64,000 nucleotides of DNA from Trypanosoma brucei (Eukaryota), in contig CM000207.1 of the NCBI GenBank assembly GCA_000002445.1, positions 192,001 through 256,000 on the forward strand. Reading direction: 5' to 3'. The position numbers and the translations under genes are program-made. The notes under the pieces are model-generated. The model had not been told where the DNA came from and ran no database searches. It was given only the letters and a program-made list of their open reading frames with translations. Shown in pieces: positions 9,001 to 54,438 of this stretch; positions within the stretch are counted from its first letter, which is position 1; every line of letters starts with the position of its first letter.

Positions 9001-10472
9001 ATGAAAAACCAGAAGCTAAATTCACCACTAGTAGTATTCGTAGCTTTGTAGCTAACATACTACGAGCGAATCGACGCAGCCGACCCACAATCAGTAACGG
9101 AAATCAAGGACGAATGTGACGAACTTGAATTCATGGTGGCTTTACACAGGCACTTCGACCAGCAGCTAACAACTCTGAACAATGCAGTAACAATGCTAAG
9201 CAAAAATGAACGAAAGCTAGAGTTGGCGGCGGCAAAGAACACCAACGCAGTGATGGAAAAACCGTATACGTTTCTTAGCGCCATCAACAGTGTGTGCAAA
9301 GCACAGGCAGAAGCGGCGCTAGCAAAGCAGGTCGACACCTTAAAACAAGTGATCCATGAAATCTCTAAAAGTGTAGGCCAACTGCAAACGGCCAGTACAA
9401 AAGCGGGAACGGCGGAAGCAGCCTATACATTAGCAGCACAGGACGGCTCGACGGCAAGCCTAGGAAACAGCCTAGGCGACGACTGCAAAGTGACGTTTAC
9501 TGGAACGAAGCCGGCAATTGCAAAGTGTACCAGCAAGGCAGGCACAATGGAACAAATCGAGAAAGTGGGTGCAGAACTAGATCAAATGGAAAACATACCC
9601 TACAGTCCTGTAAGCCAGATCCTTGGCTATAAACTAGCCGTCACAATCAAAAGCAAAAGCACTCCAACAGGCAGCACGGGGTTGACCAACAAACAGGGCT
9701 GCGGCAACGACACAACAGCGAGCAGCAACGGAAAAGGCATAACAGGCATAACCCACGAGGCTCACACAGCCAAGCCTGGCAAGCGATGCCTAAAGAGCAA
9801 CGGTGGCTGCAAACAACCAAGCAGCACAAAAGCGGACGACTCGTTCAACCCGACAAACCTTGCGTACGCCATCTGTCAAGCAAGAGCAGTAACGGTTCCC
9901 AACGCAGTAGATGTAGCAACACAAAAAGTAGCAGATTTAACCAGCGACTATGTAGCCCAACATGTGGCTCTCACATCGTTAAAGAAATCTGCCACAACTA
10001 CTGAATACACGGGCTAAAAGGCCATAACAGACTTTCTTGGTCCAAAACACACTCCGTATCTAATTTCAAATTTGTGTCCACTTTTGTGAATGGAGTAAAA
10101 AATTTGAAATTAGATACGGAGACGGCACCAATAAGCATCGAAGCTGCAAGTAGTGAAGGCAACTTCGGCAAGGCCTTAGCCATATTCATAGCAAAAGAAA
10201 AACAGCCTGCGCTGCTAGGAAGCAAAGAAAGCCAGACAGCCGACAACAATAAGGAAGCAGATGCAACAGAAATAACAGGAGAAAAAAAAGACTGGCATAA
10301 TAAAGCCGCAACTGAATGTGTAGCCACCGAAGAGAAAGATTGTGACAAAACAAAGTGTAACTGGAACAAGGAAAAAAGTGAGTGAAAAGTTAAGGAGGGG
10401 GCGGCTTTTATTTCTTATGTGATTGAGGCCCCCCTTTTACTTGTGGTTTTGCTTCTATATATAATTTTTTAA
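9001..10472 (+). pseudogene. VSG pseudogene: in-frame TAG in the signal peptide (9049-9051), a frameshift near 10017-10074, and an in-frame TGA at 10383.
   Basis: MKNQKLNSPLVVFVAL*, then N-terminal domain ORF 9133-10017, C-terminal domain 10074-10385 (CDKTKCNWNKEKSE), and a hydrophobic tail ...APLLLVVLLLYIIF*. Confidence 0.75.
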
Positions 10473-10699
10473 TTACTTTTTCTCCAATTTAAGAATTTTA
10501 TAATATTTGAAAAATTTTTGTATAATTTAAAATCTTTTAACATTTTTCGATGAAATTGTGCAAAGTATTTAATGATTAAAAGTTTTTAAAAATTAAAGAA
10601 CAGAAAAATTGTGAAAACAGTGTATGGTGGCGGTTTAACAGTTTAAAGTATTGTATTGTAGGCTACAAAAAATGACTAATATTATGAAGTTTCTTTATT

Positions 10700-11209
<510 letters not shown>

Positions 11210-11309
11210 NNNNNNNNNNNNNNNNNNNNNNNNNNNNNNNNNNNNNNNNNNNNNNNNNNNNNNNNNNNNNNNNNNNNNNNNNNNNNNNNNNNNNNNNNNN
11301 NNNNNNNNN
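11210..11309. other. Assembly gap (100 N).
   Basis: Run of n characters in the sequence. Confidence 1.
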
Positions 11310-11524
11310 TGACAGCCCTCAGGCACGACCAACAATAAAGAGGAGGAAAATGGTAACAAAGCAGATGCATCAGCAGACAAAACAGGAGATAAGTCAGACG
11401 GGAATTAAAAAGATGAGGTTTGCACAGGCACTGAAGAAAAAGATTGTGACACGAAAAAGTGTGATTGGAATAAGTAAAAGAAAGAGTGTAAAGTTAAATG
11501 GGGGCAGAAGTTACCTCTTATGTG
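11310..11524 (+). pseudogene. VSG C-terminal-domain fragment that abuts the ingi 5' end.
   Basis: Translations TGTEEKDCDTKKCDWNK* and KKECKVKWGQKLPLM resemble the C-terminal domain of the VSG at 10320-10470. There is no N-terminal domain between the gap and this fragment. Confidence 0.6.
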
Positions 11525-11601
11525 CCCTGGCGATGCCGGCCACCTCAACGTGGTTCCAGGGTCCAGTACCCCGTATCATCGGGGGAAGCCAAGAGCCAGC
11601 A
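11525..11601 (+). promoter_or_regulatory. Pr77 internal promoter / HDV-like ribozyme hallmark at the ingi 5' end.
   Basis: The first 77 nt match the conserved trypanosomatid retroposon 5' signature (established for L1Tc/ingi). The ORF ATG at 11533 lies inside it. Confidence 0.7.
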
Positions 11602-14600
11602 GCGTTCCTTTCATGGGGAACACTGCTTTGCTCCGGCTACAGCATCATACAGCACAAGGATCAGCAGCGTCTTGCTGGGACACCGTTTTTCATTTGTCGG
11701 TCCCTGGGCACGCGCCAGCGTACCATCAGCAGTATCATCCGCACTAAGATGCTGCTGTCCGGTGATGTGGAAGAGAATCCCGGCCCGTCGTTGCGCGGGA
11801 TGCAGTGGAACTGCGCCGGGCTATCTCAAGGAAAGAGATTAGCACTCCACAAAACCCTTGTTGATGAGCGGATCGCCTTTTGTCTGTTGAGCGAGACAAG
11901 GATGACGCCTGGAGAGGCGGCTTGCTTTAGCGTTGCTGGCTACCAACATCACGAAATAGCTCGTAACTGCAAAGGAGGTGGTGTATCAATACTAGTGAGG
12001 GAGGACCTACCAGTCGAGACCGGTATGGCCGTTGTTGGTCGCATTGAACAAGTGCATGCAACAATTCACCTTGCACGTGGAACGGCGCTGACTGTCACGT
12101 CGGCATACATCCCACCAAAACACACCTTCACGGCAACTGACCTAGATACGCTTCTGACGACTGACGGTGCCCAGCTCTCATCGGTGCAGACGCTAACGCA
12201 CACGCGTTGGCATGGGATCGCGCGAACCCACCAAATACCAAGGGTGAAACCCTCACACAGTGGTGCATTGACAACCAGTTTCTGGTCTGCAACACTGGTG
12301 AGTGCGCCATTTACACACGCCACCACGGGGAGTCCACCCCTGATGTGACACTGTCAAGGAATTGTACAGTGTACACGTGGACATCGCTGTATTCTCCCGA
12401 TAGCGATCACCATCACATATTTTTCGACGTTATCGTTGTAGACGACACAGATGCACTGAGTTGCCCGCGGCTTCGAAAGCCCATGTACGCATGGCTAAAA
12501 GCTAACTGGAGGAATTTCCGTCTCAAGGTTGACGAGCTCTGCAGGAAAATTGGTAGAGAGAAGAACGTCAACACCCTGGAACAGAAATTGAGCTCCGCCA
12601 TCCGCATTGCAACGAAGGTCTCCGTCCCCCGTGGCTGCAGAGTAACGCCACCACATTGGACACCTGAGCTCGCGAAACTCGATGAAGAGATCGCTGGATG
12701 CGGACCCTCCCACCGAAGGGAAAAGTTGGTAACCACGCGTAAGCAGATCCTGGACCGTACCACAAAGAAGAGATGGAGCACGCTATGCTCCAGACTTGCG
12801 GTGTCAGACCGCTGCAGTTGCCACATTGTCAAGAAGGTATATGCGCCACGACCACTAACCACACCGGCTGTACTTGTTGATAACGCGGCCATCACGGACT
12901 ACCGTCAAGCTGAGAGGTTCATTAAACTGTACTCGTCCCGCGCAAGAAGGCACCCCGACTCACACCCACCGGCACCAATAAAGACGATAGCGAGTGAGTT
13001 CAGTCTCATCACGATGGCTGAACTACGGAGATCGATCAAACTGCTACCGAGTGGATCCGCAGCCGGACCTGATTGCTTATACAACGAGGCACTGAACATC
13101 TCGGTAGAACAGCGCTGAATGTTGTTCTGAAGCTATTCTATGAAAACATACGAACGGGAGTCGTGCCGTCTGCATGGAAGATCGGTGTTATCATCCCCAT
13201 CCTGAATGCCGGAAAAAAGGCGGAGGACCTCGATTCTTACAGGCCTGTAACGCCCACGAGCTGTCTCTGCAAAGTCATGGAGCGCATAATTGCCGCGAGG
13301 CTTAGAGACACTGTTGAGTCCCAGCTGACGACGCAGCAATCAGGCTTTTGCCACGGATGCTCAACGCTCGAACAACTCCTGCACATCCGCGCTGCCCTCT
13401 GCCGTCCCACGCACCAATATCGTACGGGTGCTGTATTCGTTGACTACGAGAAGGCATTCGATACAGTAGACCACGACAAAATTGCGAGGAAAATGCACAG
13501 AATGAAGGTATCACCCCACATTGTGAAGTGGTGCGTATCATTTCTGAGTAACCGAACTGGCAGAGTGAGATTCAAGGAGAAGATTTCCAGCAGCAGAACA
13601 TTTGAGCGAGGAGTCCCACAAGGAGCTGTCCTTGGCCCAATCATGTTCATTATTGTCATGAACTCGTTGAGCCAGCGCCTTGCAGAAGTGCCGTTGCTGC
13701 AGCACGGATTCTTTGCAGACGACCTGACGCTACTTGCGAGGCACACAGAGAGGGATGTCATCAACCACACACTACAATGCGGTCTAAACGTGGTGTTACA
13801 GTGGTCAAAAGAGTACTTCATATCTGTCAACGTAGCGAAAACAAAGTGCACACTCTTCGGGTGTACAGAGCGCTATCACCTTACATTACAACTGGACGGC
13901 GAAAGAATAGGAGCTGACAGGACACCGAAGCTTCTAGGAGTAACATTCCAGTGTCTGCAGGGGATGGCAACACATGCGGCCGAAACGAGACGCAAGATGG
14001 ACTTCAGACTACTGCAGATAGCAGCCATCTCAGCTTCTACATGGGGGCCAAGACGACAAGTGTTGAGAGCTTTTCATCTGGAACTCGTACAGGCACACAC
14101 CATGTATGGCATTGAGGTATGGTACTGGGACGCTTCGAAACGAAATCGCGACCTCCTTGCATCAGCACAACACAAAGCCAGTCGCATCATAGCTGGCATA
14201 CCGCATGGGACGCGCAAAGAGGACTCTCTGCTGGAAGCAAACCTCCTGCCACTCAAGACGACCACTCTTGTGCGCAGCATGAAATTCATGCTGATGTGTG
14301 AGTCACGAGGCGGATGTTTGCGGCGCAGTGCTGAAGAAGTATACCACAGCAAACACCCAGTCAGAGTCTTACATTCCCGCATCATGCTGTCCTACCCCCA
14401 CCTCCGCATTGAGCCACGCGAGCAACCACTAGAGACATCGACGCTCCGCCACAGCTGCCGACCGCTATTTCACACGCAGATAAAGCCTGTGTGCGCTGAT
14501 GACCCTGACGATGTCAAAAGCGAGGCTTCCGAAAAGTGGATTGCACGGCATTTTGCACGGAGGGGGAAGGAGCCACAGCGGCGAGAGCACTACGAATTGT

Positions 14601-16507
14601 GGACTGATGGATGCGTGTCCCTCGGTGAGAAGTCCGGAGCAACTGCCCTGCTCTATAGAAACAACACGCTGATTTGCGCACCCAAAACTGGAGCAGGGGA
14701 ACTCTCATGCAGTTACAGAGCGGAATGCGTAGCATTAGAGATAGGACTGCAACGGCTGCTGAAATGGCTTCCGGCATACAGAAGCACACAGAGCAGGTTG
14801 TCCATCTTCTCTGACTCGCTGTCAATGTTAACAGCACTGCAGACAGGCCCCCTAGCCGTAACGGACCCAATTCTAAGACGACTATGGAGGCTTCTGCTTC
14901 AAGTTCAGAGAAGGAAGATACGTATCCGACTGCAATTTGTGTTTGGCCATTGTGGCGTGAAACGGAATGAGGTTTGTGATGAAATGGCCAAAAAGGCCGC
15001 AGATTTACCACAGTTGCGAGACACATGGATCCCCGACATCATTGCTTATGCGAAGCGAGTGCTTAGGTCGGAAGAAGTCCATGAGAACACTCATAGGTTT
15101 GGTATCACGGGCAACCACTTTACAACAAAACATAAGGAAGAACTGACGAGGGAAGAAGAAACGGCATTGGCACGCTTTCGGGTTGGGTCTTCAAGACACT
15201 ATGGATGGATGTTGCGAAAGATCAACCCGAGTGTGCCTCCACAGTGCCGATGGTGCAACCAGAAACATGCACCGATAGGACCAACAATACAAAAGGCCCC
15301 ACCTGTTGCGACACGCACTCTTCAGAGAACCTCCGAACCGACAAAATGTACGGAATGTGATGCCGCATACCAATGCCGCTCGAGTTCTGTAACGCACATG
15401 GTAAACAAACATGGCTTTGTGCGAGCTGATGCCCTCCGGAGGATCAAATACGGCGATGCAACACCCGCAGTGGATATCCCCCCGGAGCCCCCTCCAGTGG
15501 TGGCGATCGTTCCTCTACCATCGAACACACGAGTCCCGATGAGACCGCAGTTGCTTCATTGTACCATCTGTGCCTCCAAATTCGCAGTGCCAGGCCGACT
15601 ATTACACCACCTTAGAACAATACATGGCATAGGCAGCGGTAGTTGCCGCGTGAAAAGGGGGCGAGAGAACGAGGACTCATTGCAAGGAGATGGTAGAGCC
15701 CCAGCAGCGCCAGCCTCTCAGGATACACGGAAGCTGCCGTTTCAATGTGACCTGTGTGAGGCGAGTTTCGGTACACACTCTTCCCTGTCACTACACAAGA
15801 AATTCAAACATAAGAGCATAGTGACGGAGGACGGTACCGTGGTGGTGGTGCAATTCCCTCGTAAGCGTGCCCGTGAGGGAAACGTTGACGTGCCGGGGAA
15901 AGGCGAGGTGCAGTGTGGTGTGTGCCAAAAAGTGCTCAGTTGCAGGGACTCCCTCATCCGACACTGTAAGGCTTTCCACAAAGGTGAGGGTGTCGAGCTT
16001 AAATGCAGCAAAAGCAAAAAATTTTGTGCCACTGATTCCCCGCATACAAATGCATCCATGTTGGTGTGCCCGACATGCGGAAGGCAGTGTGCTAGCAAAA
16101 CTGGCCTCACCCTACATCAAAAGAAGATGCACGGTATGAAGGTAGAGCGCGCTGTTACCAGCCAACGCGGCGACTGTGAAGAAACGTCGCTGCACTCGAT
16201 GAGCTGTCCCGGTTTGAAGGAGTTACGTGTCAGGTTTGCGGTGGAAGGTGAGTGTGTGCAGGATATATGCTTCTCCAAAAGGCTGGCGCAGTTTCTCATT
16301 GCGGTTGAACGGAGCCGGCCGCAGGTGAAGTCCTCACCTAAGGTAACAGTCATACAACCCACTCTCCCTTCTGCAACTTCCCCCCTTATTGCCGAGTGTG
16401 GAGCTAGCAGGAAAAGCACCGGATGCAGGAATAGTCCAGACACCCTCAGAGACAGAGGGGGTATGCAGTCAACAAGCAACAAAAACATAAAAAGGGGGAG
16501 AGAATAA
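11533..16507 (+). pseudogene. ingi polyprotein ORF (endonuclease, RT, RNase H, C2H2 zinc fingers), disrupted by only two small indels (near 12180 and near 13085).
   Basis: ORF-track segments 11350-12348, 12207-13118 and 13073-16507. Comparison with the second copy suggests a +2 indel at about 12185 and a -1 indel at about 13087. The DVEENPGP 2A-like motif lies at 11764-11787. Confidence 0.85.
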
Positions 16508-16778
16508 TAAACGAATAACAAAAATCAAAACAAAAGGATTGCTAATTGACATCTTTGGGAGAGTCCGGAGTGGGGGGCTTCTCGCCCCATCTGCTGTATT
16601 CCGTTCAACTGCGGAGCTACAACAAAAATTATAGAGGGAGTGTTAGGATGAATAAAAAAGGGAGACTCTGCCACAGTCGCCAGATCGATAGCATCTCAGG
16701 GCTCTACGGTGATGGTTGATGGCCGCGCCAGTGGGGGGAAACTCTCACGAAGGCACGAAGAAAATTCCAAAAAAAAAA

Positions 16779-18210
16779 TAGCGGTGGCAGCACTTGCATT
16801 CACGAAACCAACTGAGGCAGAAAATTCAGCTGCTGCTGAAGGAATAAAGACACGCCGCGATGAACTAAAATTCAATCATGCACTGGCCGAGGCGCTACGG
16901 AAAAACGTCAGACAGGCACAAGGCAACTTACAAAACATAAGAACCGAAACGCGGGCGCTTCTTCTGGCGGCAATGCTAGCAGACACAATAAAGCAGCGAC
17001 AGGCATATAGTGTTATAGCTGCATATTCCGACGCCAAAGCAACCGCGCTGAAGGCAACGATCGACACAAAAAGCAAACAAATTATAGACGCCGCCGACGT
17101 GCTGGAAAAGAGGAGCGCCCAATTAAGAGGGGCGATTTTCGCAGCGAAAACAAAGGCGGTAACCGTTTCCGGCTCAATAGCGGGAGCACTAGCCAATGAC
17201 CCTGATTTCGGGGGAACGGCGAAGACATGCACACTAAAGCTTTCAGTGCACGACACGGCTGACACGGCATGCGACACCTCAGCCAACTATGATGACACCC
17301 TCGCAACACTGGCCACACAAATTAATAACCTGAAGACCATCTATACAGTCTGCGATGAGACCCCAATCACAGAACAGCTGACGGCGGTAATCACAAGCAA
17401 AGGCGACTTCGCGAGCTCAGGGGACACAACAGCAGACGGAACCGCATACTGCGGTAACCATGCCACGCGATCAAGCGCAACACACGCCATTAGCATAAAA
17501 GAACTACACGGTGAAAGCAACCCGACACGCACGATACCACAAAACCTCGAAAACGACGGAACTTGCGTAAAGCCAGGAGCCGGCCGCAAGGACGGATTAA
17601 TAACGATAAGAGAGACCGCGGCCTCAAAATGCAACGCCAAAAAAAACCTCATATCCCCGGTAATGCCAGTAAGCAGCCCGTCAGCGACCCAGCTAATCGA
17701 CGACCCAACGTTCCAAAAGCTGGCCGCCCTAGCATCAGGACAAAACACACCGCAAACTACCGGCGGAAAAAATGACAAAGCAGCAGCGATCCAACTTTTA
17801 GGGAGCGACGAAACGAATTTAAAAGACAAGTATTTCACCCCACTGGAAAACCAACACGTAGAATTCAACCTAGGTGAAGAACTAATCAGAACCAGCATAA
17901 AATCGGCAGCTTCAGGTGACAATTACGGCGCAGTTTTGGCGTTTTCAGCAGGAAAAGCAGCCATTCAAGCAGTACAGAAGGACATACCAAAAGGAGTGGA
18001 AACAGAAGCTAACGATGACTGCACAGGAAAAGGAAAAGATGATTGCAACAACAAAACAGGGTGCAAATACAATGACAAATATAGAAATGCGAAAAAGACC
18101 CTGCAAAAGCTACAACGGCGGGAACACCAGTGACCAAAAACACCACAGGAAGCAATTCTGTTATGATTAATAAAACCCCTCTTTTCTTGCATTTGTGGTT
18201 ATATAGTTAT
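16779..18210 (+). pseudogene. VSG pseudogene truncated at its 5' end by ingi (begins within the signal peptide ...AVAALAFT|KPTEA). The N-terminal domain ORF runs to 18133, and a frameshifted GPI tail follows.
   Basis: ORF 16709-18133 translates as a VSG N-terminal domain plus C-terminal domain (DDCTGKGKDDCNNKTGCKYND), followed by NTTGSNSVMINKTPLFL in another frame. Confidence 0.8.
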
Positions 18211-18288
18211 GCTTTTCGAAGATTTTTGCTACATTTTGTGAAATATGCGAAAATTGCTTTGTCAGAGAGTCTGTTAAATTTTCTTAAA

Positions 18289-18305
18289 TTTGACATATTT
18301 TAACA
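18289..18305 (+). promoter_or_regulatory. VSG 3'UTR 16-mer (ttgacatattttaacac).
   Basis: Consensus match downstream of the VSG end. Confidence 0.8.
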
Positions 18306-18399
18306 CTTTTAGATAATATGTGTAAATTTGTTAAAATGTGAAAGTTTAGTAAATTTTATATAATAGCAGCTTAGTCGTGTATTTAGTATGTGAAATTGT

Positions 18400-18545
18400 A
18401 CGGAAAAGGAATGATATTATAATTTTATTTATTTTGTTTATTTTATTGATATTATTTGCTTTTATGATAGTGATAGTATTAGCAAGGAAAATGCAAAATA
18501 TAATAAAAGGAGAGTGTTGTAAGTGTGTAAATACGAATATTATAA
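18400..18545 (+). repeat. 70-bp repeat block.
   Basis: ...aaaggagagtgttgtaagtgtgtaaatacgaatattataaaaac, preceded by TA-rich units. Confidence 0.8.
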
Positions 18546-20548
18546 AAACTTATTTGTGAAGACTGAATAAACAACAAAAAAGAAACACAGAAAAGAGTTG
18601 TAGTGTTGCAACGAATGGAAGCTAGAAAAAAAGGGAAATGGAAATGGGAATATTTTAATGAAAACAAAGGCATAAATGGAAGTGGGGTATGCACATGTCT
18701 ATAAACAAACATGAATATAATCACCATTATACAAAAGAAAATAAAGAAGGAGAACATAAGATACAGACAGAGTCCAGTGAAGAGGCATAATGCAGTCTCT
18801 ACGTTACCTATAGTGAGACAGGAAACTAAGGACCATAAATTTTGATATTTTACATTTAGATACAGGGCGGAATGTTTTCTAATTGAGAGTGGAAACTTGT
18901 CGAACAAATTATAGAAGCTTCGTGACTGATTTACGCTCTTCAACTTTCTATTTTTCTCATAACAACTACAAATTTCACATGTATAATGGGGCATCAACTT
19001 AATTATCTTGGCAATTTTACTGGCTCTGCTGTCCTTAGTGTGTTTAAGCTCAACATATCTTGAGAACAATGATGTAACAAATTAAAAAACAATTATAACA
19101 AAGAATGATCCTAAGAAGCACAGAGTATTTGTGATTGTAGTTCAAACGCATGCAACTAAAGAATGGTGTAGGCTCATATTGAAATTATTACAATTGCAAA
19201 AAGAGGTTTGTATAGCCATGTTAAAAGGCCTAGATGGGTTATGCAATATTTAGAGAAACAGAATGCAAGTGATGAGGATATTGTAATTTATTTGGATAGA
19301 TCTGATGTTATAATATCCGAACTTTATAAGTATTGTAAAGCTGTGGAATATTTTATACAGAATACTGCAGAAAGTGAAGAGAAGTTTAGTAAATAGGATG
19401 TTTTCAAAGAGCATGTAGAGAGATGTTACTGGTTTTTTAATGTTGGATATAGAAAGGAAGAGGACAAAAAATTAAATCATTCTAAAATCGCCTCCTAGTG
19501 GAAAACCCTATCTTAGCGGTGGAGGTTTGATAGCCAGAGTTTGGGCAGTTAAAAGGTTTGAATATGCATTTGTAGAATTTTTGGGAGGAAGTAAGGAATG
19601 GCAGTCAGATAAGAGTATTTACAAGCCATTTCTTATTTGGAGTGCAACTCAAAAAGAAGCTGTTGGACAGAGAATTGTTTTGAATAGAGGAATGATTGGA
19701 TTGGATTATGAAGTGAAATTTTTTCACTCGACTTAGTGAAGGGTTTAGGAAAACTACATTCATTTATTTTCCAGGATAGCAGATTGCATGGGAAGAGTGG
19801 ACGGAATTGATTTTTTAAAACCTTAGTTTGTACAAGAACTTGAGATGGAGGAAATTCGCTGGTAGAGATATGGGGAAAATAGAAACTTATGCAATGGATG
19901 GAGGAAATGGGATTTTGTATATCGGGAAGTTTTGTGGTGATACGGGTACACAAGGACATTCTTTGAAGCTAAGCAGGCGTTGACGCAGGTCCTAAAATAA
20001 CTATATTTAACGACAAGCAGCTCTGAAAACTACTGCTGACATCCTAACGATGCCAAAGGAGTCTGAACCTTTCAACTCCTGCATAACCCAACACATGTTT
20101 ATATAATAGCTGTGTTGTTAAGCTGAATAAGAGTGCTAACCGCGTGAATATAGAAGACAGAGGCATGTTTCAGGGGGAAGCTTTGCGATATAGAAAAAAC
20201 AGTTCATATAATGCCTCGACAATAACGAAACGTTTTTGATGAAATAAACGAGGCTCTTCTTGTCAATGCAATTAAACATTCGAACATCCATCATACTAAT
20301 TGACTTTGCTGTCACATTAGCACTATTCATTAGAAAAGACTGAAACAAATTTTAGCGATAGGGAAGAAAACCACTACACACTGATAAGGTACAGAATTCA
20401 ATAAAATCTAGTGATACCAGCATCAAGTCACTCCTCGGAACAAAGAATTATAGCTTCAAAGCAACGACACAAAGCCGTAATCACGGCAAAGCGACGCACT
20501 CGCCACAAAATGCTGCTTTCATCAGCAAGAAGCACTCAACAGCGCAAC

Positions 20549-29086: not shown

Positions 29087-30667
29087 GTGCCGGCAGATAT
29101 GTGTAAAACCAAAAGCAGCAGCAGCCTAGGAGCCTACACCTTCCTGACGTTAATAACGTTAATAGCTGTTTCCGGCACAGACACGCCAGAAGAAATTACC
29201 AAGGATGCCTGCGGCTCAGCGGCCTTCCTTCGCATAGTCGCGGACACTGTTAAAAGTGGACTTTTAGCAGCTGTGAAGCGAAACAACGAACTGAACAAAA
29301 GACTAGCACAGGCAACGGCAGCAGTACGCAACCAACAAAGGCCGGATCTTGGCAAAGCAGCAATGGCTTTATTGCCAATTCTAGCAAAGAAGGCGGCCGA
29401 GGAGACGTCGGCAGCCCTGGCAATGCCAACAAGGGCATTGCCAGGACTCGTAGCGGCAGCAAATTACAGTGGGCAGCAGCAGGCGCTAGCGGCGCTACTG
29501 ACAACAGAAGTAGCAGACAGCACAACAGGCCAAAGCGACGTGGGAAGCGCAGCCTCAGGGACAGCCAACATCAAATTTAAACTCAGCCAAACCAACGGAC
29601 TCACCTCGTGCGCTAGCAGCGTAAACAAGGCGGCGGACAAACACGCGTCGTGGGCCACAGTCCCAGGCCTAAAAAAATTCAGCATACACTCGCCAGAACC
29701 GGAGGTGTCGGCCAGCGACAACAGGTTTCTGGCGGTTGGCAAAGGCAGCGGCAACGGACAACAATGTGACGTAAATGGAGGAACAAACAAGCAGTTCACA
29801 GTTACAAGCTCACACGTTTGCATAGCAGGCGGCCCTGTATTTTCAGCAGCACAAAAGCAACTAGACGCCGGCACCTCAGGTGACTACGGTCGGGGGCACA
29901 TAAGCAGCTACAGCGAAACCGACGAAGACCATTTCGCCAAGCAGGCGGCGACAGACATCAAAACCGCCGTCAACGCCCTAGCAAGCAGAGCGGGGGCGTT
30001 TGATCCCAACGAACTAAGCAGCTATGACGCCGACCCGGATTTCCAGGCTGCGGTGGGCGCAATCTACGGCAATTTACCCCGAGACAAAGCAACCGGCGAA
30101 GCAAAAAATACAGTATCCAACCTTATCACACAGCATTTTGGAAAGGCGCAAAACTTCAAAAGCAAGATTTGGGACGAAATCGAAAAGCTGAAAGTGCCAG
30201 CAACAGTCCTTGGAGACAAGGCAGAGATGACGCTAAAGGACGTTGACGACATAGGATTAGCTACACATATAATGGTACAACACATTACCGCCAGCTTCCA
30301 AAAGTCAGCACCTCAAGCAGAAAAGCAGCCAGATACCACAGAAGTCAAACCAGGAAAAGCAGAAGAAACGAAAAAAACAGCAGACGAATGCAAAAAGCAT
30401 ACAACAAGTGAAGATTGTAAAAAGGAAAAAGGTTGTGATTTTGTTGAGAAAAAACCGGAAGGTGAAAAATGCTTTCCAAAAGTTGAGACTGACAAGAAAG
30501 ATGAAGAAAATAATGGGAAAGAAAGCTCTGACCGCAAAGATAAGCCTTAGAAAGATTGCACTGGAAACTGCAAATGGGAAAATAATGCTTGCAAGGATTA
30601 TAGTTTTATTGTCAATAAGAAATTTGCTTTGACGGCTGCTACCCTTATAGGTTTGTTAGGATTCTAA
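29087..30667 (+). pseudogene. Near-intact VSG (about 526 codons in one frame) carrying a single in-frame TAG at 30548-30550 in the C-terminal domain.
   Basis: ORF 29087-30550 continues in the same frame after the TAG as KDCTGNCKWENNACKDYSFIVNKKFALTAATLIGLLGF* (stop 30665-30667). No frameshifts were seen. Confidence 0.8.
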
Positions 30668-32854: not shown

Positions 32855-34381
32855 TTGATTAAATACCTTTCACCGCGTACCAGTTTAGGAATAAAAAGAA
32901 TGTCACCAAAGTTAGGGATAGCCCCGACGCTGCTAATCGCTTCACTAACATCACCACGACCAGGCGAAGCAACAGCGGGAAACGCCATCAAGAAAGCAAA
33001 CTGGCAAGCAATATGCAAAGTAACCGCTGACGCAGGAAATCTAGCAGGAATTGCGCTAACGAATATTCGAGCGCCTGCATTGCAAGTGGCGGCTGACATA
33101 AAAGCACTCTTACGCACTTTAATCTACATAGAAGGCAACTCAACCAATGCAGCGACAAAAGCGCAGAGAACAGCAACAGCTTTCCTAGGCGGCCAAACAG
33201 CAGAGAACCTAGAATACTACTCATCAACAAGTGTAGCAACAGACGTAACAACAGCCCGAAACGCCGGCAGGCTGCAAGGAGCAACGCACGAATTCATGTC
33301 TGTACAAGCAGACGGATCAACCTCAGCAAACGGCTGTATCGGCGATGACGAGTCTGGAACCAACGCATTAGCGGGATTCAGCGCCGTCGTAGCGGCAGAC
33401 CCAAACTGTCAGCTCAGCTGGGAAACAGTAACACCGTACGACGGCGCAGTGACAGCCATAACGAAAACGGGACTAAGCGGAAAATTTGCAAATGCCATAG
33501 CGCACAACGAGTTCACAAGCGGAGACAGAAAATGCAACATCAATTCGGACGCAAGCGGATTTAAACTGAGCAACGACGGTACCGGCGTTGACACAGCAGG
33601 GCACAACCCCAAGATGGCCGCAGGGATAATAAGCCTAGACGGAACCAACGGCATTCACACGGTGGCGCTGGCGAACGTCATGACAAACGACGAACACCCG
33701 TACCTCAAAGCGGCAGCAACAGCCGCAAAGCGGGGCAAGCAAACGCCTAAAGCAGCGGACCTCACAACTGCAGATACTGCCTTAGCCTCAACAGGTTTCA
33801 AAAAGGCAGCTCGCAGACACATTCTTGGTAAAAAGGAAACAGCCGATGACAGCGATACCACATTGGCAGCAAAGGTCAAGGAAGCTTTTGGTAGTGACGA
33901 GAGCATCAACAAATTAATATCAACCAACGTAAACGATATGCCTATCACAGGCATACTAAAATACAACACAGATGCCAAAAGCCTAGGCCAAATAACCGAC
34001 ATAAGCGAGCTGCTGCGCTTGTACTTTTACTACTCGGACTTGAACAAACAGAAGCTGGCTGAGACCGCGAAAAAACTTCAAGAGGCAGAATTCAAGAAAG
34101 AGACAAAATCAGCAAAAGAGAAAGAAAAAGAAGGCAATACCAAAGGCAAGGACAAACAAGATGGGTGTGACAAGCTAAAGGACCAGGGATGTGTTTTTAA
34201 CAAAGATGGCAATGATGGTGAAAAGTGCACATTGAAAAAGGAGGCGAAAGAAAAACTGAAAAAAGCAGGCCAAGAAACAGGAGAGAAAGATAGCAAAACC
34301 AGAACCACAAACACCACAGGAATCAATTCTTTTGTCATTAACAAGGCCCCTCTTTTGCTTCCAGTTTTGCTTCTAGCATAA
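32855..34381 (+). CDS. Apparently intact VSG gene (508 aa from the first ATG; the likelier start is the ATG at 32900, giving 494 aa).
   Basis: One uninterrupted ORF: signal peptide MSPKLGIAPTLLIASLTSPRPGEA, N-terminal domain, C-terminal domain (DGCDKLKDQGCVFNKDGNDGEKC), and canonical GPI signal NTTGINSFVINKAPLLLPVLLLA*. A 70-bp repeat lies about 1.8 kb upstream, and a degenerate 16-mer lies downstream at about 34470. Confidence 0.85.
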   Translation: MIKYLSPRTSLGIKRMSPKLGIAPTLLIASLTSPRPGEATAGNAIKKANWQAICKVTADAGNLAGIALTNIRAPALQVAADIKALLRTLIYIEGNSTNAATKAQRTATAFLGGQTAENLEYYSSTSVATDVTTARNAGRLQGATHEFMSVQADGSTSANGCIGDDESGTNALAGFSAVVAADPNCQLSWETVTPYDGAVTAITKTGLSGKFANAIAHNEFTSGDRKCNINSDASGFKLSNDGTGVDTAGHNPKMAAGIISLDGTNGIHTVALANVMTNDEHPYLKAAATAAKRGKQTPKAADLTTADTALASTGFKKAARRHILGKKETADDSDTTLAAKVKEAFGSDESINKLISTNVNDMPITGILKYNTDAKSLGQITDISELLRLYFYYSDLNKQKLAETAKKLQEAEFKKETKSAKEKEKEGNTKGKDKQDGCDKLKDQGCVFNKDGNDGEKCTLKKEAKEKLKKAGQETGEKDSKTRTTNTTGINSFVINKAPLLLPVLLLA

Positions 34382-40426: not shown

Positions 40427-40526
40427 NNNNNNNNNNNNNNNNNNNNNNNNNNNNNNNNNNNNNNNNNNNNNNNNNNNNNNNNNNNNNNNNNNNNNNNNNN
40501 NNNNNNNNNNNNNNNNNNNNNNNNNN
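40427..40526. other. Assembly gap (100 N).
   Basis: Run of n characters. Confidence 1.
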
Positions 40527-47050: not shown

Positions 47051-48000
47051 GTGGTAATGAAGACTGAGTAAAAGGTTTATTAGTGAAACTTGAAACAATG
47101 GCATTGGTGGTATTTTGCAGGTTGGTGAGTGGGAGTGGGAGGGAATATGAAAATTTTTGTTGATAAAACCTGGAGAGACAAAGAGGAATAGAGATAGAAC
47201 TTGAGAATTTTCAATTGCAAAAATGACGACGTGTATCACGACACACAAGGAGATTATGCAGGGAGCAGTGAAGCACAAGCTGAGTTCAGTGTGCAGGGCA
47301 AATTTGGTTGCTACGGCATGCAAAGAAGAAGCAGCAGCAGACGAAATATTTAAAAACAAAATATGGAAAGAAAAACAGAATGCGCGACAGTATACCGAAC
47401 TACGGATTAAAATAAAATTTTAGGAGTATGAGAAGGTGAGTCACAGTATTTTACACAGAAATGAATAGAACCAGCAGCCCAGCTTGTAAGATCTGTAGTC
47501 TTTATTGCTTTTGCAGCCTTCTAATGCTAGAAAGAGTGAATGGCAGTTATTTATAGAATGAATATAGTTTTTTTACTTCATCAGCGAACTAAGATAGCGC
47601 GAGGAAGCAGCGCTTTGATATCGCAGGAGAAGATATCCTCGGAACATTGTAAGAAATGTTAATAAAAATTTGAAATATTAAAACACGGATAGGAAACCGC
47701 TTAAACAGCAACCATAAACACAAGCCAACACGTAGCTTCCGTCAAACCTCATGGAAAATATGCGACAACACAGCAGACATTAAGAAACTGAAAATGGAAA
47801 CAAACACGTCGCTTTCATCTTTGCGGAGACAGCAAAGCAAAAAAAAAAACTGCCCAAACTAACCTGTTGCAGAAGCAAATCGTAATTTACGGTAACAAGT
47901 GTAGTACCGGACAGAAATATAGTACCACTAAACATGGAGCCTGGTGCTTACTAAGCCTTTAGAGGAGCAGACCAAATTCACTGGCACAGGCGTACAGATA

Positions 48001-49093: not shown

Positions 49094-49463
49094 TTTTTTT
49101 TTGGAATTTTCTTCGTGCCTTTGAGAGAGTTTCCCCCCACTGGCGCGGCCATCAGCTATCACCGTAGAGCCCTGAGATGCTATCGGTCTGGCGACTGTGG
49201 CAGAGTCTCCCTTTTTAATTAAGCCTAACACTCCCTCTATAATTTTTGTTGTAGCTCCGCAGTTGAACGGAATACAGCAGATGGGGCGAGAAGCCCCCCA
49301 CTCCGGACTCTCCAAAAGATGTCAATTAGCAATCCTTTTGTTTTGATTTTTGTTATTCGTTTATTATTCTCTCCCCCTCTTTCTGTTTTTGTTGCTTGTT
49401 GACTGCATACCCCCTCTGTCTCTGAGGGTGTCTAGACTATTCCTGCATCCGGTGCTTTTCCTG

Positions 49464-52400
49464 CTAGCTGCACAGTCGGATAAGGAGAGAAGTTGCAGAA
49501 GGGAGAGTGGGTTGTATGACTGTTACATTAGGGGAGGACTTCACCTGCGGCCGGCTCCGTTCAACCGCAATGAGAAACTGCGCCAGCCTTTTGGAGAAGC
49601 ATATATCCTGCACACACTCACCTTCCACCGCAAACCTGACACGTAACTCCTTCAAACAGGGACAGCTCATCGAGTGCAGCGACGTTTCTTCACAGTCGCC
49701 GCGTTGGCTGGTAACAGCGCGCTCTACCTTCATACCGTGCATCTTCTTTTGATGTAGGGTGAGGCCAGTTTTGCTAGCATACTGCCTTCCGCATGTCGGG
49801 CACACCAACATGGATGTGTTTGTATGCGGGGAATCAGTGGCACAAAATTTTTTGCTTTTGCTGCATTTAAGCTCGACTCCCTCACCTTTGTGGAAAGCCT
49901 TACAGTGTCGGATGAGGGAGTCCCTGCAACTGAGCACTTTTTGGCACACACCACACTGCACCTCGCCTTTCCCCGGGACGTTAACATTTCCCTCACGGGC
50001 ACGCTTACGAGGGAATTGCACCACCACCACGGTACCGTCCTCCGTCACTATGCTCTTATGTTTGAATTTCTTGTGTAGTGACAGGGAAGAGCGTGTACCG
50101 AAGCTCGCCTCACAAGGTCACATTGAAACGGCAGCTTCCGTGTATCCTGAGAGGCTGGCGCTGCTGGGGCTCTACCATCTCCTTGCAATGAGTCCTCGTT
50201 CTCTCGCCCCCTTTTCACGCGGCAACTACCGCTGCCTATGCCATGTATTGTTCTAAGGTGGTGTAATAGTCGGCCTGGCACTGCGAATTTGGAGGCACAG
50301 AGGGTACAATGAAGAACCTGCGGTCTCATCGGGACTCGTGTGTTCGATGGTAGAGGAACGATCACCACCACTGGAGGGGGCTCCGGGGGGATATCCACTG
50401 CAGGTGTTGCATCGCCGTATTTGATCCTCCGGAGGGCATCAGCTCGCACAAAGCCATGTTTGTTTACCATGCGCGTTACAGCACTCGAGCGGCATTGGTA
50501 TATGGCATCACATTCCGTACATTTGGTCGGTTCGGAGGTTCTCTGAAGAGTGCGTGTCGCAACAGTTGGGACCGTTTGTATTGTTAGCCCTATCGCTGCA
50601 TGTTGCGGGTTGCACCATCGGCACTGTGGAGGCACACTCCGGTTGATCTTTCGCAACATCCATCCATAGTGTCTTGAAGACCCAACCCGAAAGCGTGCCA
50701 ATGCCGTTTCTTCTTCCCTCGTCAGTTCTTCCTTATGTTTTGTTGTAAAGTGGTTGCCCGTGATACCAAACCTATGAGTGTTCTCATGGACTTCTTCCGA
50801 CCTAAGCACTCGCTTCGCATAAGCAATGATGTCGGGGATCCATGTATCTCACAACTGTGGTAAATCTGCGGCCTTTTTGGCCATTTCATCACAAACCTCA
50901 TTCCGTTTCACGCCACAATGGCCAAACACAAATTGCAGTCGGATACGTATCTTCCTTCTCTGAACTTGAAGCAGAAGCCTCCATAGTCGTCTCAGAATTG
51001 GGTCCGTTACGGCTAGGGGGCCTGTCTGCAGTGCTGTTAACATTGACAGCGAGTCAGAGAAGATGGACAACCTGCTCTGTGTGCTTCTGTATGCCGGAAG
51101 CCATTTCAGCAGCCGTTGCAGTCCTATCTCTAATGCTACGCATTCCGCTCTGTAACTGCATGAGAGTTCCTCTGCTCCGGTCTTGGGTGCACAAATCAGC
51201 GTGTTGTTTCTGTAGAGCAGGGCAGCTGCTCCGGACTTCTCACCGAGGGACACGGATTCATCAGTCCACAATTCGTAGTGCTCTCGCCGCGGTGGCTCCT
51301 TCCCCCTCCGTGCAAAATGCCGTGCAATCCACTTTTCGGAAGCCTCCCTTTTGACATCGTCAGGGTCATCAGCGCACACAGGCTTTACCTGCGTGTGAAA
51401 TAGCGGTCGGCAGCTGTGGCGGAGCGTCGATGTCTCTAGTGGGTGCTCGCGTGGCTCAATGCGGAGGTGGGGGTAGGACCGCATGATGCGGGAATGTAGG
51501 GCTCTGACCGTATGTTTACTGTGGTATACTTCCTCAGCACTGCGGCGCAAACATCCGCCTCGTGACTCACACATCAGCATGAATTTCATGCTGCGCACAA
51601 GAGTGGTCGTCTTGAGTAGCAGGAGGTTTGCTTCCAGCAGAGAGTTCTCTTTGCGCGTCCCATGCGGTATGCCGGCTATGATGCGACTGGCTTTGTGTTG
51701 TGCTGATGCAAGGAGGTCGCGACTTCGTTCCGAAGCGTCCCAGTACCATACCTCAATGCCATACATGGTGTGTGCCTGTACGAGTGCTAGATAAAAAGCT
51801 CTCAGCACTTGTCGTCTTGGCCCCCATGTAGAAGCTGAGATGGCTACTATCTGCAGTAGTCGGAAGTCTATCTTGCGTCTCGTTTCGGTCGCATGTGTTG
51901 CCATCCCTTGCAGACACTGGAATGTTACTCCTAGAAGCTTCGGTGTCCTGTCAGCTCCTATTCTTTCGCCGTCCAGTTGTAATGTAAGGGGGTGGCGCTC
52001 TATACACCCGAAGAGTGTGCACTTTGTTTTCGCTACGTTGACAGACATGAAGTACTCTTTTGACCACTGTAACACCACGTTTAGACCGCATTACAGCGTG
52101 TGGTTAATGACATCCCTCTCTGTGTGCCTCGCTAGTAGCGTTAGGTCGTCTGCAAAGAATCCGTGCTGCAGTAACGGCACTTCTGCAAGGCATTGGCTTA
52201 ACGAGTTCATGACAATAATGAACATGATTGGGCCAAGGACAGTTCCTTGTGGCACTCCTCGCTCAAATGTTCTGCTTCTGGAAAGCTTCTCCTTGAATCT
52301 CACTCTGCCAGTTCGGTTACTCAGAAATGATACGCACCACTTCACAATGTGGGGTGATACCTTCATTCTGTGCATTTCCCTCGCAATTTTGTCGTGGTCT

Positions 52401-54334
52401 ACTGTATCAAATGCCTTCTCGTAGTCAACGAATACAGCACCCGTACGATATTGGTGCGTGGGACGGCAGAGGGCAGCGCGGACGTGCAGGAGTTGTTCGA
52501 GCGTTGAGCAACCGTGGCGAAAGCCTGATTGCTGCGGCGTCAGCTGGGACTCAACAGTGTCTCTAAGCCTCGCGGCAATTATGCGCTCTATGACTTTGCA
52601 GAGACAGCTCGTGAGCGTCACAGGCCTGTAAGAATCGAGGTCCTCCGCCTTTTTTCCGGCCTTCAGGATGGGGATGATAACACCAGTCTTCCATGCAGGC
52701 GGCACGACTCCCGTTCGTAGGCTCTCATTGAATAGCCTCATTACAACATTCAGCGCTGTTCTACCGAGATGTTGTAGTGCCTCGTTGTATAAGCAATCAG
52801 GTCCGGCTGCGGATCCACTCGGTAGCAGTTTGATCGATCTCCGTAGTTCAGCCATCGTGATGGGACTGAACTCACTCGCTATCGTCTTTATGGGTGCCGG
52901 TGGGTGTGAGTCGGGGTGCCTTCTTGCGCGGGACGAGTACAGTTTACTGAACCTCTCAACTTGACGGTAGTCCGTGATGGCCGCGTTATCAACAAGTACA
53001 GCCGGTGTGGTTAGTGGTCGTGGCGCATATACCTTCTTGACAATGTGCCAACTGCAGCGGTCTGACACCGCAAGTCTGGAGCATAGCGTGCTCCATCTCT
53101 TCTTTGTGGTACGGTCCAGGATCTGCTTACGCGTGGCTACCAACTTTTCCCTTCGGTGGGAGGGTCCGCATCCAGCGATCTCTTCATCGAGTTTCGCGAG
53201 CTCAGGTGTCCAATGTGGTGGCGTTGCTCTGCAGCCACGGGGGACGGAGACCTTCGTCGCAATGCGGATGGCGGAGCTCAATTTCTGTTTCAGGGTGTTG
53301 ACGTTCTTTTCTCTACCAATTTTCCTGCAGAGCTCGTCAACCTTGAGACGGAAATTCCTCCAGTCAGCTTTCAGCCATGCGTACATGGGCTTTTGAAGCC
53401 GCGGGCAACTCAGTGCATCTGTGTCGTCTCCAACGATAACGTCAAAAAATATGTGATGGTGATCGCTATCGGGAGAATACAGCGATGTCCAAGTGTACAC
53501 TGTGCAATTCCTTGACAGTGTCACATCAGGGGTGGACTCCCCGTGGTGGCGCGCGTACCTGGTGCACCCACCAGTGTTGCAGACCAGAAACTGGTTGTCA
53601 ATGCACCACTGTGTGAGGGTTTCACCCTTGGTATTTGGTGGGCTCGCGCGATCCCATGCCAACGCGTGTGCATTAGCGTCTGCACCGATGAGCTGGGCAC
53701 CGTCAGTCGTCAGAAGCGTATCTAGGTCAGTTGCCGTGAAGGTGTGTTTTGGTGGGATGTATGCCGACGTGACAGTCAGCGCCGTTCCACTTGCAAGGTG
53801 AATTGTTGCATGCACTTGTTCAATGCGACTAACAACGACCATACCTGTCTCGACTGGCAGGTCCTCCCTCACTAGTATTGATACACCACCTCCTTTGCAG
53901 TTACGAGCTATTCCGTGATGTTGGTATCCAGCAACGCTAAAGCAAGCCGCCTCTCCAGGCGTCATCCTTGTCTCGCTCAACGGACAAAAGGCGATCCGCT
54001 CATCAACAAGGGTTTTGTGGAGTGCTAATCTCTTTCCTTGAGATAGCCCGGCGCAGTTCCACTGCATCCCGCGCAACGACGGGCCGGGATTCTCTTCCAC
54101 ATCACCGGATAGCAGCATCTTAGTGCGGATGATACTGCTGATGGCACGCTGGCACGTGCCCAGGGACCGACAAATGAAAAACGGTGTCCCAGCAAGACGC
54201 TTCTGATCCGTGTGCTGTATGATGCCGTAGCCGGAGCACAGCAGTGTTCCCCATGAAAGGAATGCTTCTGACTCTTGGCTTACCCCGATGATACGGGGTA
54301 CTGGACTCTGGCACCATGTTGAGGTGGTCGGCAT
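49464..54334 (-). pseudogene. ingi polyprotein ORF, degenerate, with multiple frameshifts or stops.
   Basis: Four ORF segments cover the endonuclease, RT, RNase H and zinc-finger regions. The DVEENPGP coding sequence lies at 54080-54103 on the - strand. Confidence 0.85.
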
Positions 54335-54342
54335 CGCCAGGG
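54266..54342 (-). promoter_or_regulatory. Pr77 hallmark at the 5' end of the inverted ingi.
   Basis: The reverse complement matches the copy-1 5' end with a few substitutions. Confidence 0.7.
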
Positions 54343-54438
54343 TGTTGAATTGAAGGCAAGCGTCAGGATTCCAGTCTCCTGGTCCATAAGAAATTGTTTC
54401 TGAGTATGGATGCTACTTTTGTAGCCTTGGTGTTTTAA
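54343..54438 (+). pseudogene. VSG C-terminal and GPI-signal remnant immediately flanking the ingi 5' end.
   Basis: QDSSLLVHKKLFLSMDATFVALVF* (stop 54436-54438), followed by a 3'UTR with a 16-mer-like gtgaagtactttaacat at about 54508. Confidence 0.7.

What the first reader, a model, noticed from the sequence alone, without database searches (positions are those of the whole stretch)
11310..18210. Near-intact ingi sits between non-matching VSG halves, with no target-site duplication
The 5.25-kb ingi at 11525-16778 shows only two small frame-breaking indels relative to the second copy (about +2 near 12185, about -1 near 13087), so it is close to a coding-competent element. Its 5' junction abuts a VSG C-terminal-domain fragment (11310-11524). 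Its poly(A) end abuts a VSG that begins mid-signal-peptide (…AVAALAFT/KPTEA, 16779 onwards). The 12-nt flanks, ACCTCTTATGTG on the 5' side and TAGCGGTGGCAG on the 3' side, are unrelated. That is unexpected for a simple retroposition, because ingi normally makes a ~12-bp TSD. It points to a post-insertion rearrangement: ectopic recombination between ingi copies, or a deletion or gene conversion that used the element as an anchor.
Basis: partly seen in the sequence, partly recalled or inferred. Interest (0 to 1): 0.6.

Follow-up and report, generated by a model that had tools for sequence, protein, structure and literature searches.

The report
TSD-less ingi retroposon joining two VSG pseudogenes
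A full-length, nearly intact ingi retrotransposon in a Trypanosoma brucei TREU927 surface-antigen (VSG) gene array has no target-site duplication and sits between the tail of one VSG pseudogene and the head of the next, which is most likely the scar of recombination between two ingi copies and is common for this element.

Summary
A 5,254-bp ingi lies at 11525-16778 (+). Its only ORF lesions are a private CT insertion (12175-12176) and a private 1-nt deletion (13094). The 5' flank is a VSG C-terminal fragment that ends inside the GPI-signal coding region. The 3' flank is a different VSG lacking only its first 10 codons. The 12-nt flanks match at 2/12, and no direct repeat appears when the boundaries are shifted.

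The window is T. b. brucei TREU927, in a subtelomeric VSG array. The missing TSD is less surprising than claimed. Of 10 full-length ingi copies I could examine, only 2 have a perfect TSD and 1 a near-perfect one; 5 have none. These include the second copy in this window and copies from a long-read T. b. equiperdum assembly.

Copy 1 is mosaic relative to copy 2. All 13 variants that only these two share lie in the 3' 2.25 kb (p about 5e-5). That fits a hybrid element made by ingi-ingi homologous recombination, my best explanation at about 0.45.

Two rivals remain open:
- One retrotransposition with a target-site deletion. The 5' flank lacks the target motif seen at TSD-bearing copies.
- Assembly collapse of two neighbouring ingi copies. 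A 100-N gap lies 215 bp upstream.

This is a known kind of event and of low interest.

The parts
10744..11209 (+). 70-bp-repeat tract: (TAA)148 followed by GATAATAATAATGATAATTATGATAGGATAGTGTTGTGAG. It normally lies upstream of a VSG cassette.
11210..11309 (.). Assembly gap of 100 N (size unknown). It abuts the (TAA)n tract, as the second gap at 40427-40526 also does.
11310..11524 (+). VSG-A: a C-terminal-domain fragment of a VSG pseudogene, with in-frame stops. It ends inside the GPI-signal coding region. The last 12 nt are ACCTCTTATGTG.
   Evidence: 71% nt identity to 10255-10421. No Pfam hit.
11525..16778 (+). Full-length Tbingi copy 1 (5,254 bp), 2.2% from the 9-copy consensus.
11525..11603 (+). 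5' 79-nt ingi-clade signature (Pr77 region), complete from the first base CCCTGGCG. No Rfam family matched.
   Evidence: signature described in PMC2323293 and PMC3820030
11533..16507 (+). ingi ORF (EN, RT, RNase H, C2H2 zinc finger; 2A-like MLLSGDVEENPGP at 11749). It is split over three frames by two private indels.
12175..12176 (+). Private CT insertion (+2) inside the endonuclease domain.
13093..13094 (+). Private 1-nt deletion (a C present in all 8 other copies) between the EN and RT domains.
14390..14545 (+). Approximate mosaic breakpoint. Variants shared exclusively with copy 2 occur only from 14544 to 16639 (13 sites) and never upstream.
   Evidence: Fisher p = 4.8e-5 against the other doubleton sites
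16769..16778 (+). Poly(A) tail, A10.
16779..18210 (+). VSG-B pseudogene. It starts at codon 11 (AVAALAFT...), has a 1-nt deletion at 18085 that frameshifts the C-terminal domain, and has its own GPI-signal region.
18291..18306 (+). Conserved VSG 3'-UTR 16-mer, here TGACATATTTTAACAC.
   Evidence: the motif is established knowledge
49094..54342 (-). ingi copy 2 (5,249 bp), also TSD-less. It lies between a VSG N-terminal domain (48001-49093) and a VSG GPI-signal tail (54343 onward). It shares 13 exclusive variants with the 3' part of copy 1.

Best explanation
The element is a hybrid ingi. One ingi (X) had inserted into the GPI-signal coding end of VSG-A. Another ingi (Y), in the same orientation, had inserted at codon 10/11 of VSG-B. 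Homologous recombination within the 5.25-kb homology then joined X's 5' part and flank to Y's 3' part and flank. The exchange could have been an unequal or ectopic crossover, an intrachromosomal deletion, or a gene conversion with flank exchange. It removed one TSD copy of each insertion and everything between the two elements. If X and Y were neighbours, that lost segment was the VSG-A tail, its 3' UTR, a 70-bp repeat and the VSG-B start.

Shown: the element's identity, its precise ends, the unrelated flanks and the mosaic sequence. Inferred: the two parental insertions and the exchange itself.
For: 1. There is no TSD (2/12) although the element is only 2.2% from consensus, so decay is excluded.
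2. Copy 1 is mosaic. All 13 derived variants shared exclusively with copy 2 lie 3' of element position ~3020 and none lie in the first 3 kb (Fisher p = 4.8e-5 against 83 other doubleton sites). Total derived-site density is even along both copies. This is what is expected if copy 1 carries the 3' part of a sister of copy 2 on an unrelated 5' part.
3. TSD-less full-length ingi are frequent, at 5 of 10 sampled. Several of them (L001, L005) keep a canonical-looking 5' target flank while carrying a retrotransposon-hot-spot (RHS)-type 3' flank, which is the signature of flank exchange.
4. Closely spaced ingi pairs that could serve as substrates exist in a long-read assembly: a direct pair ~960 bp apart in L011 and an inverted pair 1.6 kb apart in L003.
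5. [quoted passage not shown] Subtelomeres recombine ectopically (PMC3467770). About half of L1Tc/NARTc lack a TSD yet keep the upstream motif (PMC5814959).
Against: 1. No partner junction was found, either poly(A)+ACCTCTTATGTG or TAGCGGTGGCAG+CCCTGG. Only 260 kb could be searched.
2. The 5' flank of copy 1 (AGAAGTT|ACC...) lacks the GGxTxAx|TT(T/C) pattern found upstream of all four TSD-bearing copies. A bona fide X insertion should carry it. That motif rests on very few sites.
3. The mosaic could come from an unrelated gene conversion or from a recombinant source element, with no flank exchange.
4. The shared variants might instead mark a TREU927-specific subfamily, because all the comparison copies come from another strain.
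Confidence: 0.45

Rival explanations
1. A single retrotransposition event with a target-site deletion (aberrant target-primed reverse transcription). The first-strand nick was made at VSG-B codon 10/11. The 5' end of the full-length cDNA was then joined to a break roughly 2 kb upstream in the VSG-A tail, instead of 12 bp downstream. This deleted the inter-VSG spacer and produced no TSD.
For: The 3' junction looks canonical: poly(A) is followed by T. In the uninterrupted paralogue the site reads GGCTTTC|ATAGCGGTGGCA, so the GGxT part of the ad hoc target motif sits in the right register on the side that would have been deleted. The 5' flank of copy 1 is the clearest outlier among 10-11 copies: no GG at -19/-18, no T at -16, no A at -14 and no TT at -12/-11. 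Yet the element's 5' end is complete to the first base, as expected if the junction formed during insertion. Copy 2 in the same array shows the same TSD-less pattern and also lacks the motif.
Against: This model does not predict the mosaic relationship with copy 2. The motif is derived from only four TSD-bearing sites, and the VSG-B site comes from a 90%-identical paralogue. Such events have not, to my knowledge, been documented for ingi. Most other TSD-less copies in the sample keep canonical-looking 5' flanks, which points to recombination as the usual cause.
Confidence: 0.2
2. Assembly artefact. Two real ingi copies in direct orientation, separated by the VSG-A tail, a 70-bp repeat and the VSG-B start, were collapsed or chimerically joined in the Sanger-era TREU927 assembly. 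Each real copy could then have its own TSD.
For: A 100-N gap lies only 215 bp upstream of the element, so the 5' junction sits at the very edge of a contig. Both gaps in the window abut (TAA)n tracts of 70-bp repeats, and the supposedly missing spacer would contain such a tract. A direct ingi pair ~960 bp apart exists in a long-read assembly (L011). A collapse mimics recombination exactly, including the mosaic. The T. b. gambiense genome paper warns that such regions are hard to resolve in assemblies (PMC2854126).
Against: The assembler kept copies 1 and 2 apart at 3.4% divergence. There are no zero-difference blocks between them, so there is no sign of read mixing. TSD-less ingi also occur in a PacBio assembly, so the phenomenon is real in general. 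The non-canonical 5' flank is not explained by this model.
Confidence: 0.2
3. An ordinary insertion whose TSD has decayed, or whose boundaries were misplaced by a few bases.
For: None beyond the general fact that old TSDs decay. L004 and L011b do show degenerate TSDs of 8/12 and about 6-7/12.
Against: Identity at the canonical position is 2/12, and 4/12 at best with shifts. The longest shared word is 5 nt, at chance level. The element is 2.2% from consensus. The two flanks belong to different parts of different VSG genes.
Confidence: 0.01

Closest known systems
Tbingi/TbRIME non-LTR retroposons of T. brucei (ingi clade; Bringaud et al. 2004, as cited in PMC3820030)
   Same: 5.25-kb length, the CCCTGGCG... 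79-nt 5' signature, a single EN-RT-RNase H-zinc finger ORF with a 2A-like peptide, a poly(A) tail, and a location in a subtelomeric VSG array.
   Different: It lacks the 12-bp TSD. Its 5' flank does not show the upstream target pattern seen at TSD-bearing copies. Two frameshifts make it non-autonomous.
TSD-less L1Tc/NARTc elements of T. cruzi (about half of copies; Bringaud et al. 2006 as summarised in PMC5814959)
   Same: A sister family in which loss of the TSD is frequent and compatible with exchange between copies.
   Different: Those TSD-less copies are reported to keep the conserved upstream motif. Copy 1 here does not appear to.
Chimeric RHS (retrotransposon hot spot) pseudogenes and other ingi/RIME-mediated rearrangements (Bringaud 2002 and Berriman 2005 as cited in PMC7563717 and PMC2854126)
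   Same: Retroelement copies act as dispersed homology for recombination that joins unrelated gene halves in subtelomeres.
   Different: Here the joined halves are VSG pseudogenes rather than RHS genes, and the parental copies are not identified.
L1 insertion-mediated target deletions and endonuclease-independent L1 insertions in mammals (from my own knowledge: Gilbert 2002, Symer 2002, Morrish 2002)
   Same: A full-length or polyadenylated element without a TSD, flanked by sequences that were not adjacent before insertion.
   Different: This has not been demonstrated for ingi. Endonuclease-independent insertions usually lack a poly(A) tail or are truncated, which this copy is not.

Membership tests
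Tbingi (autonomous ingi-clade non-LTR retroposon) | Conserved 79-nt 5' signature starting CCCTGGCG | tested here: met
   Identical start in copy 1 and in 9 other full-length copies.
Tbingi (autonomous ingi-clade non-LTR retroposon) | About 5.25 kb with one long ORF encoding APE-type endonuclease, RT, RNase H and zinc finger | tested here: met
   5,254 bp with Pfam Exo_endo_phos, RVT_1, RNase_H and zf-C2H2. The ORF is restored to 1,657 aa after correcting two private indels. As it stands it is non-coding-competent.
Tbingi (autonomous ingi-clade non-LTR retroposon) | 3' poly(A) tail | tested here: met
   A10 at 16769-16778.
Tbingi (autonomous ingi-clade non-LTR retroposon) | 12-bp target-site duplication | tested here: not met
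   2/12 identity, and 4/12 at best with shifts. This is a hallmark of a canonical insertion, not of element identity: 5 of 10 sampled copies lack it.
Tbingi (autonomous ingi-clade non-LTR retroposon) | Conserved ~11-bp pattern upstream of the 5' TSD | tested here: inconclusive
An ad hoc motif GGxTxAx|TTY, taken from 4 TSD-bearing copies, is absent from copy 1's 5' flank (AGAAGTT|ACC).
VSG gene (3' flank, VSG-B) | Full-length similarity to annotated VSGs, including the signal peptide, N-terminal domain, Cys-rich C-terminal domain, GPI signal and 3'-UTR 16-mer | tested here: met
   78-94% identity to VSGs of T. brucei and T. equiperdum. The 16-mer is at 18291. The first 10 codons are missing and there is a frameshift at 18085, so it is a pseudogene. 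There is no Pfam hit.
VSG gene (5' flank, VSG-A fragment) | C-terminal domain with a Cys motif followed by a GPI signal | tested here: inconclusive
   71% nt identity to the neighbouring VSG pseudogene's C-terminal domain, and a C..C....C.W...C pattern with stops. No Pfam hit on the 70 residues.
Hybrid retroelement from inter-copy homologous recombination | Mosaic sequence with a breakpoint inside the element | tested here: met
   13 of 13 variants exclusive to copies 1 and 2 lie 3' of ~14544 (p = 4.8e-5). This cannot be tied uniquely to the event that exchanged the flanks.
Hybrid retroelement from inter-copy homologous recombination | Reciprocal or parental junctions elsewhere that carry the matching TSD halves | not testable with these tools
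   None were found in the window plus 11 loci, 260 kb in total. The rest of the TREU927 genome could not be scanned.
Retrotransposition with target-site deletion | An empty-site allele showing the two flanks separated only by the deleted segment | not testable with these tools
   No orthologous locus was retrievable. The T. equiperdum loci L001 and L002 are 90% paralogues with different upstream sequence.

The most novel reading that the evidence does not exclude
In VSG arrays, ingi may often integrate by a non-canonical, TSD-less route that deletes target DNA. This could be aberrant second-strand processing or capture at breaks in fragile subtelomeric DNA. Retrotransposition itself, rather than later recombination, would then directly truncate and fuse neighbouring VSG cassettes and help create the pseudogene-rich archive. 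Both copies in this window lack the TSD and the upstream target motif, which is compatible with this reading.
Probability: 0.2. Interest if true: 0.4.

Novelty: already known. Interest (0 to 1): 0.2.

Why it matters
It matters little beyond annotation. The locus is one concrete example of how dispersed ingi copies remodel the silent VSG archive, here by fusing the end of one VSG pseudogene to the start of the next. It also shows that absence of a TSD is not a useful anomaly flag for ingi, because about half of the copies lack one. The only modestly useful leads are the mosaic relationship between the two copies in this array and the non-canonical 5' flanks. With genome-wide data these could separate recombination from deletion-associated retrotransposition as sources of VSG truncation.

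Tried and rejected
1. Shifted-boundary TSD search and decay: rejected.
2. Copies 1 and 2 as reciprocal recombination or inversion partners: rejected. The cross-flank comparisons give no match at the junctions. The 10/12 match CGCTTGCCTTCA/CACTTGCATTCA lies 8 and 12 nt away from the junctions. All VSGs between the copies have the same orientation as those outside.
3. The two flanks as halves of one VSG split by the gap: rejected. The gap is upstream of the fragment, and VSG-B has its own C-terminal domain and is collinear with full-length homologues.
4. The collinear order (VSG tail, then VSG head) as evidence for a local deletion: dropped. In a periodic, uniformly oriented array any two flank positions can be read as a deletion of 0-3.3 kb.
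5. Orthologous locus in other strains: not obtained. The T. equiperdum hits are 90% paralogues with unrelated upstream sequence. The EATRO1125 and Lister 427 VSG entries are protein-only.
6. Published Tbingi target consensus: Bringaud 2002, 2004 and 2009 are not held. I used an ad hoc motif instead.
7. Rfam search of 10500-19000: no match.
8. Exact look-up of the intact VSG by sequence in the contig index failed, but the cluster look-up identified the source strain.
9. Whether copy 2's two flanks belong to one VSG: unresolved. The Lister 427 homologue is truncated.
Full report
**Source and setting.** Two intact VSG ORFs in the window (29099-30550 and 32900-34381) are exact matches to XP_803400 and XP_803401 of Trypanosoma brucei brucei TREU927, on a 3.06-Mb record. 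The window is therefore a subtelomeric VSG array. VSG genes, pseudogenes and fragments recur about every 3.3 kb, all on the + strand, separated by 70-bp-repeat tracts with long (TAA)n runs. There are two 100-N assembly gaps, at 11210-11309 and 40427-40526. Both abut a (TAA)n tract.

**The element.** The ingi starts at 11525 (CCCTGGCGATGCCGG...) and ends in A10 at 16769-16778. It aligns end to end with a second copy on the minus strand (49094-54342) at 96.6% identity.
- I aligned it with eight other full-length copies: copy 2 and seven from the long-read T. b. equiperdum IVM-t1 assembly. It is 2.2% from the consensus.
- It differs in length structure from the consensus at only three columns: a private CT insertion at 12175-12176 and a private 1-nt deletion at 13094.
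- These indels shift the ORF through frames 1, 0 and 2.
- With them corrected, the ORF runs 1,657 codons from the ATG at 11533 without a stop. It is 94% identical to an intact 1,656-aa ingi protein.
- Pfam finds the endonuclease, RT, RNase H and zinc-finger domains.

**The flanks.**
- Upstream: 11359-11524 is 71% identical to the C-terminal domain of the preceding VSG pseudogene (10255-10421). The similarity ends exactly at the ingi start. In the paralogue the sequence continues ATTGAGGCCCCCCTTTTACTTGTGG, which is the GPI-signal hydrophobic stretch. The 5' junction therefore lies inside the GPI-signal coding region of a VSG pseudogene fragment (VSG-A).
- Downstream: the sequence from 16779 encodes a VSG (VSG-B) that is 78-94% identical to annotated VSGs. 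The full-length relatives start MTSQTATAFIAVAALAFT. At the DNA level the T. equiperdum paralogues read ...GGCTTTCA|TAGCGGTGGCAGCACTTGC, so only the first 10 codons and the upstream region are missing.
- VSG-B has its own C-terminal domain and the 3'-UTR 16-mer. It also carries a 1-nt deletion at 18085 that frameshifts the C-terminal domain.
- The two flanks are therefore parts of two different VSG pseudogenes, not of one gene split by the gap.

**No TSD.** The canonical 12-mers share 2/12 positions, and 4/12 at best when shifted by up to 3 nt. The longest exact word shared by the 46-nt and 52-nt junction regions is 5 nt, which is typical of random window pairs. At 2.2% divergence a 12-bp TSD pair should have lost about half a position, so decay is excluded. 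The literature confirms that ingi-clade elements make a 12-bp TSD (PMC3820030).

**How unusual is this?** I collected every full-length ingi I could reach: 2 in the window and 8 in T. b. equiperdum loci L001, L003 (two copies), L004, L005, L006, L010 and L011.

| TSD state | Copies |
|---|---|
| Perfect 12-bp TSD | L006 (TTTATTTCTTTG), L010 (TTTCACATATCT) |
| Perfect but for one indel | L003a |
| Degenerate | L004 (8/12), L011b (4/12 in register, 7/12 with shifts) |
| None | window copy 1, window copy 2, L001, L003b, L005 |

Because the equiperdum assembly is long-read based, TSD-less ingi are real and common. For the sister family in T. cruzi, about half of the copies are reported to lack a TSD (PMC5814959). 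The missing TSD is therefore not a surprise in itself.

**Evidence on mechanism.**
1. Mosaic structure.
   - Among 96 sites where exactly two of the nine aligned copies share a minority base, 13 are shared by the two window copies. All 13 lie at 14544-16639 in copy 1 and none lie in the first 3 kb.
   - The other 83 doubletons split 48:35 between the 5' and 3' parts (Fisher p = 4.8e-5).
   - The density of derived sites is even along both copies. There are no zero-difference blocks, so read mixing is unlikely.
   - The simplest reading is that copy 1 carries the 3' 2.25 kb of a sister of copy 2 on an unrelated 5' 3 kb. That is a recombinant element with a breakpoint near 14390-14545.
2. No partner found. 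Copies 1 and 2 are not reciprocal or inversion partners. No partner junction occurs in the 260 kb at hand.
3. An ad hoc target motif.
   - All four TSD-bearing copies have GGxTxAx at -19 to -13, followed by a TSD that starts TT(T/C) (L003a only after a one-base shift).
   - L001 and L005 lack a TSD but also have the motif, and they carry RHS-type 3' flanks. That is the expected signature of flank exchange.
   - Copy 1's 5' flank (AGAAGTT|ACC) lacks every conserved position.
   - The reconstructed VSG-B site is GGCTTTC|ATAGCGGTGGCA, which has GGxT in register.
   - This argues that the 3' junction is a genuine nick site. It also suggests that the 5' junction may not be a canonical insertion flank. 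The motif rests on very few sites.
4. Possible substrates. Closely spaced ingi pairs exist: a direct pair ~960 bp apart in L011 and an inverted pair 1.6 kb apart in L003. Substrates for deletion by recombination, and for assembly collapse, are therefore plausible.

**Weighing the explanations.**
- Inter-copy homologous recombination explains both the missing TSD and the mosaic in one step. It matches what is reported for ingi/RIME and for subtelomeres (PMC2854126; PMC3467770). I put it at about 0.45.
- A single retrotransposition with target deletion explains the non-canonical 5' flank but not the mosaic. I put it at about 0.2.
- A collapse or chimeric join of two neighbouring copies in the Sanger-era assembly predicts exactly the same sequence as recombination. 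It is made plausible by the gap 215 bp upstream. I put it at about 0.2.
- TSD decay or misplaced boundaries is rejected.

**Verdict.** This is a known kind of subtelomeric rearrangement scar, or possibly an assembly artefact, in the reference genome and is of low interest. The mosaic relationship of the two copies and the non-canonical 5' flanks are the only points worth a genome-wide follow-up.

Noticed in passing
window 47944-54450: The second ingi (49094-54342, - strand) is also TSD-less (2/12). It separates an A-type VSG N-terminal domain (48001-49093, 98% identical to Lister 427 VSG-1689) from a VSG GPI-signal tail (...FVALVF*, from 54343). About 80 codons of C-terminal domain are missing if both pieces come from one gene.
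   Followed up: partly
window 11210-11309 and 40427-40526: Both 100-N assembly gaps directly abut long (TAA)n tracts of 70-bp repeats ((TAA)148 and (AAT)82). The gaps are probably caused by these repeats rather than by the ingi.
   Followed up: partly
window 16709-18133: An ORF starts inside the ingi 3' end (GTG/ATG at 16709-16714) and reads through the poly(A) as KKK, in frame, into VSG-B. The result is a chimeric ingi-VSG reading frame of 474 codons. It is probably fortuitous.
   Followed up: no
L001 1742-6995 and L002 1-30: In two T. equiperdum assemblies the 90% paralogue of VSG-B is intact at its 5' end. It has an inverted, TSD-less ingi about 3 kb upstream. That ingi's 3' flank (TTTACTAGTGTTCTAGTTGAG) is the same RHS-type sequence seen next to the ingi in L005.
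   Followed up: partly
L003 9993-15244 and 16901-22127; L011 2325-7548 and 8512-13762: Closely spaced ingi pairs occur in the long-read assembly. One is an inverted pair 1.6 kb apart and 98.3% identical. The other is a direct pair about 960 bp apart, whose first member lacks its last ~40 nt and poly(A).
   Followed up: no
5' flanks of L006, L010, L004, L003a, L001, L005 (positions -19 to -10): A recurrent GGxTxAx motif is followed by a TSD that begins TT(T/C). It probably corresponds to the published 11-bp ingi target pattern. It is absent from both window copies and from L003b.
   Followed up: partly
window 16781-18130: VSG-B (450 aa) matches no Pfam VSG family at E <= 0.01, although it is 78-94% identical to annotated VSGs. 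The automatic loci listings likewise show no Pfam domain for its equiperdum homologues.
   Followed up: no
window 1-64000: Only the VSG at 32900-34381 looks fully intact. The 29099-30550 ORF is annotated as a VSG but ends without an obvious GPI signal. The remaining roughly 15 VSG units are pseudogenes or fragments.
   Followed up: no
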